Virus record (IMG/VR): IMGVR_UViG_2529292736_000004
DNA from: a virus
Taxonomy: Duplodnaviria > Heunggongvirae > Uroviricota > Caudoviricetes
Strand: one strand, 5' to 3'
Length of the DNA: 37,226 nt
The notes beneath the pieces were generated by a model that was not told where the DNA came from, ran no database searches, and worked only from the letters and a program-made list of their open reading frames with translations. Below are positions 1 to 648 of the stretch, piece by piece. Positions within the stretch are counted from its first letter, which is position 1. Each line of letters begins with the position of its first letter. Position numbers and translations under genes: made by a program.

Positions 1-524
1 AACGCACCTGGCAGTCGCTCTCGGGGTAAAAGCGGCGGACGCTGGTCATCGGGTACTGTTCATGCCACTGGATAAGCTGATCGCCACACTCATGAAGGCA
101 AAAACAGGAAAACCGGCCGGAAAAACAGCTACAGCAGCTTGGTTATGCCCGGGTACTGATACTGGATGAGATAGGCTATCTGCCGATGACCCGCGAGGAA
201 GCCAGTCTGTTCTTCCGGTTGCTGAACCGTCGATATGAAAAAGCGAGCATCGTGCTGACATCAAATAAAGGGTTCGCCGACTGGGGAGAGATGTTCGGCG
301 ATAACGTGCTGGCAACGGCAATCCTGGATCGACTGCTCCACCACTCAACCACACTGAACATCAAAGGAGAAAGCTACCGGTTAAAGGAAAAACGCAAAGC
401 GGGAGTGCTGGCAAAAAACGCCACGCCAATCAGTGATGATGAAATGGCGGAAAGCGGACAACATTAATGACCAATAGCGGACATTAAAAATGGCGAAAAA
501 CGGCCAATAATCTTGGCGTTGACA
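1..524 (+). mobile_element. Right end of an IS21-family insertion sequence (istB 3' portion plus terminal repeats); element continues beyond the window start
   Basis: Translation in two frames gives IstB-like sequence (THLAVALGVKAADAGHRVLF... then ...[11 protein letters not shown]...[29 protein letters not shown]...[15 protein letters not shown]). Lambda gam homology begins abruptly at 525; the IS side ends ...gttgaca. Confidence 0.7.
2..467 (+). pseudogene. istB: istB (IS21-family ATP-binding helper), reading frame broken by a +1 insertion in an A-run near position 100-104
   Basis: Frame 2 encodes ...[12 protein letters not shown] and stops at 173; frame 3 carries the Walker B box and C-terminus (QENRPEK...[10 protein letters not shown]...). 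The frames join across gcaaaaacagg. Confidence 0.6.
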
Positions 525-648
525 TCATGGCTGAACTCCTGAAATAGCTGTGAAAATATCGCCCGCGAAATGCCAGGCTGATTAGGAAAACAGGAAAGGG
601 GGTTAGTGAATGCTTTTGCTTGATCTCAGTTTCAGCATTAATATCCAT
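525..648 (-). pseudogene. gam: gam 5' fragment (host-nuclease inhibitor Gam), truncated by the IS21-family element
   Basis: Minus-strand translation from the ATG at 648 gives [41 protein letters not shown], matching the lambda Gam N-terminus, then switches to IS sequence. It overlaps kil by 46 nt as in lambda. Confidence 0.75.

What the first reader, a model, noticed from the sequence alone, without database searches (positions are those of the whole stretch)
1..648. IS21-family element truncates gam, removing the upstream recombination module within the window
Lambda-like sequence (kil, gam codons 1-41) ends abruptly at 525 and is replaced by the end of an IS21-family element: several copies of a short repeat near the terminus and an IstB-like reading frame. 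Gam is therefore cut after about 41 codons, and bet/exo, if present at all, lie beyond the IS. The istB frame itself is broken by an extra A in an A-run.
Basis: partly seen in the sequence, partly recalled or inferred. Interest (0 to 1): 0.45.

Follow-up and report, generated by a model that had tools for sequence, protein, structure and literature searches.

The report
IS21-family insertion at gam start codon
A catalogued mobile element (ISEc62, IS21 family) sits exactly on the start codon of the short form of the phage gene gam in a lambda-like E. coli prophage; the window stops there only because the draft contig ends inside the element, so this is an ordinary insertion, although the same spot was hit separately in at least two other E. 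coli prophages.

Summary
Window 1-524 is the right end of an IS21-family element, 99.6% identical to ISEc62. Lambda/phage-21-like sequence starts at 525. An extra A (100-104) breaks the istB frame.

The interpretation needs three corrections.
1. The window is a whole draft contig (AIHJ01000015.1), so its left edge is an assembly break inside a repeated IS, not a biological end.
2. A sister assembly (AIHI01000004.1) is 99.95% identical over window 1-8237. It shows the full picture: a complete 2125-bp IS with intact istA and istB, a 4-bp target duplication (TCAT), and beyond it gam, bet, exo, xis and int.
3. The insertion lies at the start codon of GamS (residues 41-138, the RecBCD-inhibiting form). 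The duplication regenerates the ATG, so the GamS reading frame is whole but has lost its ribosome-binding site and its direct link to pL. Only the GamL-specific leader is cut off.

The istB frameshift, and a second A-run frameshift in gene O, are absent from the sister assembly. Both may be sequencing errors.

Unexpectedly, ISEc62 in a different prophage (strain AST85) and IS100 (strain 98232) sit at the same or the adjacent nucleotide, in the same orientation. This suggests an insertion hot spot.

The parts
1..524 (+). Right-hand 524 nt of an ISEc62-type IS21-family insertion sequence. The full element is 2125 bp; the rest lies beyond the contig end.
   Evidence: 99.6% identical over its full length to complete ISEc62 copies. 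The window equals contig AIHJ01000015.1. The complete copy at the same site is seen in the sister assembly.
2..467 (+). 3' part of istB (codons 111-264 plus stop), split into two frames by a +1 A.
   Evidence: Corrected translation differs from WP_000544809.1 only by L149P. Pfam PF01695 E = 5.7e-51, NCBIfam NF038214 E = 5.4e-51.
100..104 (+). A5 run that is A4 in reference copies. This is the frameshift. The nearby C118 is T elsewhere.
   Evidence: Alignments with E24377A and with the sister assembly. No complete E. coli genome exceeds 99.6% identity, so none carries the extra A.
442..508 (+). Three direct repeats of about 20 nt starting at 442, 465 and 488 (23-nt spacing). They are presumed IstA-binding repeats of the right terminal inverted repeat.
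   Evidence: The 23-bp spacing of direct repeats in IS21-family ends is described in PMC10122671.
513..524 (+). Terminal inverted repeat TTGGCGTTGACA, ending in the CA dinucleotide.
   Evidence: 11 of 12 bases match the reverse complement of the left end TGTCAGCGCCAA of full copies.
525..528 (.). Right-hand copy of the 4-bp target-site duplication TCAT.
   Evidence: In the sister assembly and in strain AST85, TCAT flanks both IS ends. The empty site in phage 21 reads ...AAGCGTTCATGGCTG....
526..540 (-). GamS start codon (528-526) and its Shine-Dalgarno sequence AGGAG (540-536), left on the kil side of the IS.
   Evidence: Mapped from the curated phage 21 annotation: gam CDS of 297 nt with its ribosome-binding site. 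GamS = residues 41-138 (PMC5218532).
525..648 (-). GamL-specific leader: codons 1-41 of the 138-codon lambda gam frame, plus one base.
   Evidence: Translation [41 protein letters not shown].
484..648 (-). Chimeric 54-codon ORF: the GamL leader fused to 13 IS-derived codons. No Pfam hit.
   Evidence: The product is not on record in the protein collection.
603..746 (-). kil, intact.
   Evidence: Pfam Lambda_Kil E = 2e-20.
715..879 (-). cIII, intact.
   Evidence: Pfam Lambda_CIII E = 1.5e-30.

Best explanation
A 2125-bp ISEc62-type element (IS21 family; istA transposase plus istB AAA+ helper) transposed into a lambda/phage-21-like prophage of an E. coli strain, making a 4-bp target duplication, TCAT. 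The site is the initiation codon of GamS, between kil and gam in the leftward pL operon. istAB points opposite to the pL transcript.

The window shows only the last 524 nt of the IS because it is a draft contig that stops inside this multicopy repeat.

Consequences:
- The Shine-Dalgarno sequence, the ATG and one base of GamS stay next to kil and now read into 13 IS codons.
- The duplicated ATGA restores the start codon on the other side. The 98-codon GamS frame, bet, exo, xis and int are therefore all still present, as shown in the sister strain and inferred for this strain.
- gam has lost its ribosome-binding site.
- gam, bet, exo, xis and int are now separated from pL by 2.1 kb of antisense IS. 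Their expression would depend on N-antiterminated read-through. This is an inference from the classical finding that lambda N relieves IS polarity.

The istB frameshift is either a very recent private mutation or, more likely, a homopolymer error near the contig end.
For: - The window equals contig AIHJ01000015.1, length 37226.
- The IS part is 99.6% identical to full ISEc62 copies, through the exact terminus.
- The phage flank from 525 is 100% identical to phage 21. The phage 21 annotation places the gam ATG at window 526-528 and the ribosome-binding site at 536-540.
- A predicted chimeric protein (IS left end + GamS, assuming a 4-bp duplication) exists in the protein collection. It led to AIHI01000004.1, which matches window 1-8237 with only 4 differences.
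- That contig carries the complete IS, IstA (390 aa), IstB (264 aa), TCAT on both sides, then Gam (PF06064), RecT/Bet (261 aa), YqaJ/Exo (226 aa), xis, int and ybhC.
- The closest uninterrupted relative, strain F5, has the same gene order.
- Other ISEc62 copies have 4-6 bp duplications.
- GamS = residues 41-138 and inhibits RecBCD (PMC5218532).
Against: - The left junction was not seen in the source assembly itself. It is inferred from a sister assembly, so a strain-specific deletion beyond the IS cannot be formally excluded.
- Nothing here measures expression. The read-through and loss-of-translation statements are inferences.
- The frameshift cannot be called real or artefactual without the reads.
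Confidence: 0.85

Rival explanations
1. In the source strain the IS is only a remnant, or it has mediated an adjacent deletion. On this reading gam (beyond codon 41), bet and exo are truly lost.
For: The window contains nothing left of the IS. The prophage is decaying, with two further IS elements and a broken O gene.
Against: The window edge is a contig end inside a repeat. The sister assembly, with 4 differences in 8.2 kb, has the complete IS, the target duplication and the whole Red-xis-int arm.
Confidence: 0.07
2. The extra A in istB is a real mutation. This IS copy would then encode a truncated helper ATPase and could move only with IstB supplied by other copies.
For: The base is in the deposited sequence. 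Homopolymer slippage is a common natural mutation. The other indels relative to relatives in this contig are also in homopolymers, and the structural genes carry no frameshifts, so the assembly is not riddled with errors.
Against: - It is absent from the sister assembly and from all complete E. coli genomes, where the best identity is 99.6%.
- Both differences from the IS consensus lie within 118 nt of the contig end, inside a multicopy repeat.
- The only other length difference from the sister is also an A-run change that breaks a gene, O.
Confidence: 0.35
3. The three occurrences of an IS21-family element at this site reflect one ancestral insertion spread among prophages by recombination, not a hot spot.
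For: Lambdoid prophages recombine freely. The ISEc62 junctions in AST85 and in the AIHI/AIHJ lineage are identical, with the same TSD and the same orientation.
Against: - IS100 has no useful nucleotide similarity to ISEc62, and its junction is offset by one base, with a 5-bp duplication.
- AST85 carries a different prophage, with another immunity region and another chromosomal neighbourhood.
- The IS copies differ at 6 of 2125 positions, against 65 of 2694 in the adjacent flank; Fisher p = 4.5e-11.
Confidence: 0.15
4. The IS-phage junction is an assembly chimera.
For: It lies near a contig end in a draft assembly.
Against: The identical junction occurs in an independent assembly that reads through the whole IS, and in a complete genome. 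In both it has a matching target duplication.
Confidence: 0.01

Closest known systems
ISEc62 (IS21 family), e.g. the copies in E. coli E24377A
   Same: 99.6% nucleotide identity over the 524 nt present. It has the same terminus, the same terminal repeats and the same IstB apart from L149P.
   Different: One extra A breaks istB, and there is one substitution. Only the right end lies in the window.
IS21 / IS5376, the studied prototypes of the family
   Same: istA-istB organisation, ends with a terminal CA, several direct repeats per end spaced 23 bp apart, and a short target duplication (PMC10122671).
   Different: Different sequence. IS5376 makes 5-bp duplications, whereas ISEc62 copies here show 4-6 bp, mostly 4.
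IS100 insertion between kil and gam in E. coli 98232 (NZ_CP173446.1)
   Same: An IS21-family element in the same orientation at the GamS start codon. The ATG is duplicated, and gam, bet and exo are intact beyond it.
   Different: A different IS: 1954 bp, with no significant nucleotide similarity. The duplication is 5 bp (TTCAT) and the junction is offset by 1 nt.
Lambda gam (GamL 138 aa / GamS 98 aa)
   Same: The flank encodes the GamL leader with 2 substitutions relative to lambda. The gene lies after kil in the pL operon.
   Different: No part of the Gam domain (residues 41-138) lies in the window. In the sister strain it lies beyond the IS, behind a regenerated ATG and without its Shine-Dalgarno sequence.

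Membership tests
IS21 family of insertion sequences | Helper AAA+ ATPase gene istB (Pfam IstB_IS21 / NCBIfam IS21_help_AAA) at the right-hand side of the element | tested here: met
   Frame-corrected fragment (154 aa): PF01695 E = 5.7e-51, covering profile positions 106-238 of 238; NF038214 E = 5.4e-51. The score is below the full-length cut-off only because it is a fragment.
IS21 family of insertion sequences | DDE transposase gene istA immediately upstream of istB | tested here: met
   Not in the window, because the contig ends. In the sister assembly's copy at the same site, IstA is 390 aa (rve + Mu-transpos_C_2) and abuts IstB of 264 aa. PGAP names it 'IS21-like element ISEc62 family transposase'.
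IS21 family of insertion sequences | Terminal inverted repeats ending 5'-TG...CA-3' | tested here: met
   The right end is ...TTGGCGTTGACA (513-524). The left end of full copies is TGTCAGCGCCAA; 11 of 12 bases are complementary.
IS21 family of insertion sequences | Multiple direct repeats within each end, spaced about 23 bp apart | tested here: met
   Repeat units start at 442, 465 and 488. The spacing is as described in PMC10122671.
IS21 family of insertion sequences | Short direct target duplication flanking a complete element | tested here: met
   TCAT lies on both sides in the sister assembly and in AST85. Ten other ISEc62 copies have 4-6 bp duplications. The window itself holds only the right-hand copy.
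IS21 family of insertion sequences | Transposition activity of this copy | not testable with these tools
   istB is frameshifted in the deposited sequence but intact in the sister assembly.
Lambda Gam (host-nuclease inhibitor, PF06064) | Gam domain in the reading frame present in the window | tested here: not met
   The 54-aa ORF at 484-648 has no Pfam or NCBIfam hit. It holds only the GamL leader, which lies outside GamS (residues 41-138).
Lambda Gam (host-nuclease inhibitor, PF06064) | Complete Gam gene at the locus, between kil and bet | tested here: met
   In the sister assembly, the product after the IS hits PF06064 and is followed by RecT/Bet and YqaJ/Exo. This was not verified in the source assembly itself.

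The most novel reading that the evidence does not exclude
The GamS initiation region of lambdoid prophages (...AAGCGT/TCAT/GGCTGAACTCC...) is a natural insertion hot spot for IS21-family elements, used in one orientation by at least two unrelated members, ISEc62 twice and IS100 once. The family is reported to lack strong target sequence specificity. The site would therefore be a natural substrate for studying structure-based target choice by IstB. Such insertions would repeatedly uncouple the Red and excision genes from pL.
Probability: 0.5. Interest if true: 0.35.

Novelty: already known. Interest (0 to 1): 0.2.

Why it matters
For annotation, it is a reminder that a window edge can be a contig break. 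The 'missing' recombination module is almost certainly on another contig, and a frameshift in a homopolymer near a contig end should not be read as biology without the reads.

Biologically, the insertion is an ordinary step in prophage decay. It separates gam, bet, exo, xis and int from pL and strips GamS of its ribosome-binding site, which probably weakens induction-time recombination and excision.

The one point of wider interest is the recurrence of IS21-family insertions at the same nucleotide. If the hot spot is real, it is a cheap natural test case for how the IstB/IstA machinery picks targets.

Tried and rejected
- **Exact-junction searches.** The junction, and a generalised pattern GTTGACA-N0-3-CATGGCTGAACTCCTG, gave nothing in genome contigs, viral contigs or metagenome contigs.
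- **Chimeric ORF look-up.** The 54-aa ORF at the right junction is not on record.
- **Other predicted left-junction chimeras.** Other start codons, other Gam variants and the IS100 versions are not on record.
- **Outward hybrid promoter.** The terminal TTGACA is a perfect -35 hexamer, but the scan found no suitably spaced -10 in the phage flank. Only weak promoter and terminator matches occur inside the IS. Rejected for lack of evidence.
- **Target consensus.** Ten other ISEc62 sites share no sequence with the gam site. My early idea that the target resembles the IS end (GCGTT..CA) is not supported by those sites.
- **Cruciform or inverted repeat at the empty site.** None was found, only a TCCTGAA direct repeat.
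- **Link to the lambda tL3 terminator.** The record held does not annotate it, and the literature search was unhelpful.
- **Sequencing platform of the assembly.** The genome announcement I suspected (PMC3370608) is not held. Neither the strain name nor the platform is verified.

Full report
**What is in the sequence**

Window 1-524 (+ strand) carries an IstB-like reading frame and ends in ...CTTGGCGTTGACA. From 525 the minus strand carries lambda-type genes.

- Megablast against 5,426 complete E. coli genomes shows that 1-524 matches the last 523 nt of many full-length 'IS21-like element ISEc62 family' copies at 99.6%. One example is in E24377A, where istA (1173 nt) and istB (795 nt) are annotated.
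- A pairwise alignment shows exactly two differences. One is an extra A in the run at 100-104. The other is C118 instead of T. Identity runs to the last base, 524.
- With one A removed, the frame gives IstB residues 111-264 with one substitution, L149P.
- That fragment hits Pfam IstB_IS21 (E = 5.7e-51) and NCBIfam IS21_help_AAA (E = 5.4e-51).
- Upstream of the 12-nt terminal inverted repeat (513-524; 11 of 12 bases match the left end) there are three ~20-nt direct repeats starting at 442, 465 and 488. The 23-nt spacing is the one described for IS21-family ends (PMC10122671).

**The phage side**

- From 525 the sequence is 100% identical to phages 21 and O276 and 98.7% identical to lambda.
- kil (603-746) and cIII (715-879) are intact and match their Pfam families.
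- The 138-codon lambda gam frame (GamL; lambda annotation) starts at 648. It reaches codon 41 at 528-526 and then runs into IS sequence for 13 codons.
- Codon 41 is the start codon of GamS. GamS is residues 41-138 and is the form used for the RecBCD-inhibitor structure (PMC5218532).
- The curated phage 21 record and PGAP both annotate gam as the 297-nt short form. The ATG corresponds to window 526-528 and the ribosome-binding site to window 536-540.
- The IS therefore sits one base after the GamS ATG. None of the Gam domain is in the window, and the 54-aa chimeric ORF has no family hit.

**Why the window stops there**

A look-up of the 93-aa IstB C-terminal ORF showed that the window is the whole of contig AIHJ01000015.1 (37,226 nt) of draft assembly GCA_000250395.2. 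The left edge is thus a contig end inside a multicopy IS. It says nothing about what lies beyond.

**Finding the other side**

- No complete E. coli genome and no species-representative, viral or metagenome contig holds the junction by exact search.
- Other ISEc62 copies showed 4-5 bp target duplications. From this I predicted the left junction and the ORFs it would create.
- With a 4-bp duplication, an in-frame ATG in the IS left end gives MVNYCLISLALT fused to GamS. That exact 110-aa protein is in the protein collection, on one contig.
- The contig is AIHI01000004.1 of GCA_000250375.2. Its reverse complement matches window 1-8237 at 99.95%.
- The only four differences are the extra A at 100, C118T, a missing A at 6490 and C7610T.
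- There the IS is complete (2125 bp), IstA is 390 aa and IstB is an intact 264 aa. TCAT flanks both ends: ...AAGCGTTCAT|TGTCAGCG...GTTGACA|TCATGGCTG....
- Beyond the IS lie Gam (PF06064), RecT/Bet (261 aa), YqaJ/Exo (226 aa), several small genes, xis, int and the host gene ybhC.
- The closest uninterrupted relative, strain F5, has the same order next to ybhC.

So this is a simple transposition, not a deletion. This is shown for the sister strain and inferred for the source strain.

**Consequences**

- Shown: the duplication regenerates ATGA, so the 98-codon GamS frame is intact.
- Shown: its Shine-Dalgarno sequence (AGGAG) stays on the kil side. The sequence now preceding the ATG (...CATTGGCGCTGACA) has none.
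- Inferred: GamS translation is impaired, unless the 12-codon extended ORF is used. That ORF has a GGAG 12 nt upstream.
- Inferred: GamL, with a 40-residue extension, is active (PMC5218532), so a short N-terminal extension need not destroy function.
- Inferred: gam, bet, exo, xis and int are now 2.1 kb further from pL, behind antisense IS sequence that holds only weak terminator-like sites. From established knowledge, lambda N relieves the polarity of IS insertions (recalled from the 1970s literature, not checked here). Induction may therefore still reach these genes.
- No expression data exist here.

**The frameshift**

- The extra A is in the deposited sequence.
- It is absent from the sister assembly.
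- It is absent from every complete E. coli genome, where the best identity is 99.6%.
- It is absent from the other loci fetched.
- Both differences from the IS consensus lie within 118 nt of the contig end.
- The only other length difference from the sister is another A-run change, which breaks the replication gene O. The A5 form of that run is found in 5 of about 1,660 genomes.
- All simple indels relative to strain F5 are 1-nt changes in homopolymers.

I rate an artefact as more likely than a real mutation, about 65:35. Only the reads can decide.

**An unexpected recurrence**

- In E. coli 98232, IS100 sits between kil and gam in the same orientation, with a 5-bp duplication, TTCAT. Its junction is offset by one base, and gam, bet and exo are intact.
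- IS100 is an IS21-family element of 1954 bp with no significant nucleotide similarity to ISEc62.
- A short junction query found that only two complete genomes have an IS21-type end at this site: strain 98232 and strain AST85.
- In AST85, ISEc62 sits at exactly the same nucleotide with the same TCAT duplication. The prophage is different: it has another immunity region, it lies next to emrE/ylcJ, and the right flank is homologous for only 82 nt.
- The two ISEc62 copies differ at 6 of 2125 positions, against 65 of 2694 in the adjacent flank (Fisher p = 4.5e-11). This argues for separate insertions rather than one inherited event.
- Ten other ISEc62 sites share no target sequence. The literature reports no strong sequence specificity for IS21 and structure-based selection by IstB (PMC10122671, PMC11208146).
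- The empty site has no inverted repeat.

The cause is unexplained.

**Verdict**

This is a known IS (ISEc62, IS21 family) inserted in a known kind of place, a decaying lambdoid prophage that also carries an IS3-family and an IS66-family element. Interest is low. The recurrent target is the only part worth a follow-up.

Noticed in passing
window 525-528; L016 (NZ_AP043644.1) 2892-5024; L001 (NZ_CP173446.1) 4050-6013: Three separate IS21-family insertions lie at the same or the adjacent nucleotide of the GamS start codon, all in the same orientation. They are ISEc62 in the AIHI/AIHJ lineage, ISEc62 in AST85 and IS100 in 98232. Other ISEc62 sites show no target consensus.
   Followed up: partly
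window 6486-6495: The replication gene O is frameshifted by a missing A in an A-run (A5 instead of A6). It is intact in the sister assembly and in strain F5. The A5 form is seen in only 5 of about 1,660 complete genomes. Like the istB change, it may be a homopolymer sequencing error.
   Followed up: partly
window 17609-20690: An IS66-family element (3082 bp; tnpA, tnpB and tnpC on the minus strand) with an 8-bp duplication, GAATGAAC, is inserted 1 nt upstream of the ATG of the small terminase gene (nu1/nohD homologue, start at 20700). It probably cuts the packaging genes off from late transcription.
   Followed up: partly
window 12427-13736: An IS3-family element of 1310 bp (ends TGAACCGCCCCGGG, 3-bp duplication GAC; orfA of 108 aa and orfB of 296 aa on the minus strand) lies between the porin moron and the lysis genes.
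   Followed up: partly
window 3225-4531: Two minus-strand genes occupy the position of rexAB, between N and cI. One is a DUF1828 protein (258 aa). The other is a 180-aa protein with a weak DUF6978 hit. They weakly match the PADLOC candidate defence system PDC-M24 (B: E = 5e-7; A: E = 4e-4).
   Followed up: no
window 10836-11918: An OmpC/NmpC-type porin gene (Porin_1, E = 3e-153) is carried as a moron downstream of the Q antiterminator, on the opposite strand.
   Followed up: no
L015 1-155 (AIHI01000004.1), corresponding to just beyond window 8237: The sister assembly diverges from the window at window position 8237, inside ninB. There it carries an IS3-family transposase that the window lacks. 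The two otherwise near-identical prophages therefore differ in IS content.
   Followed up: no
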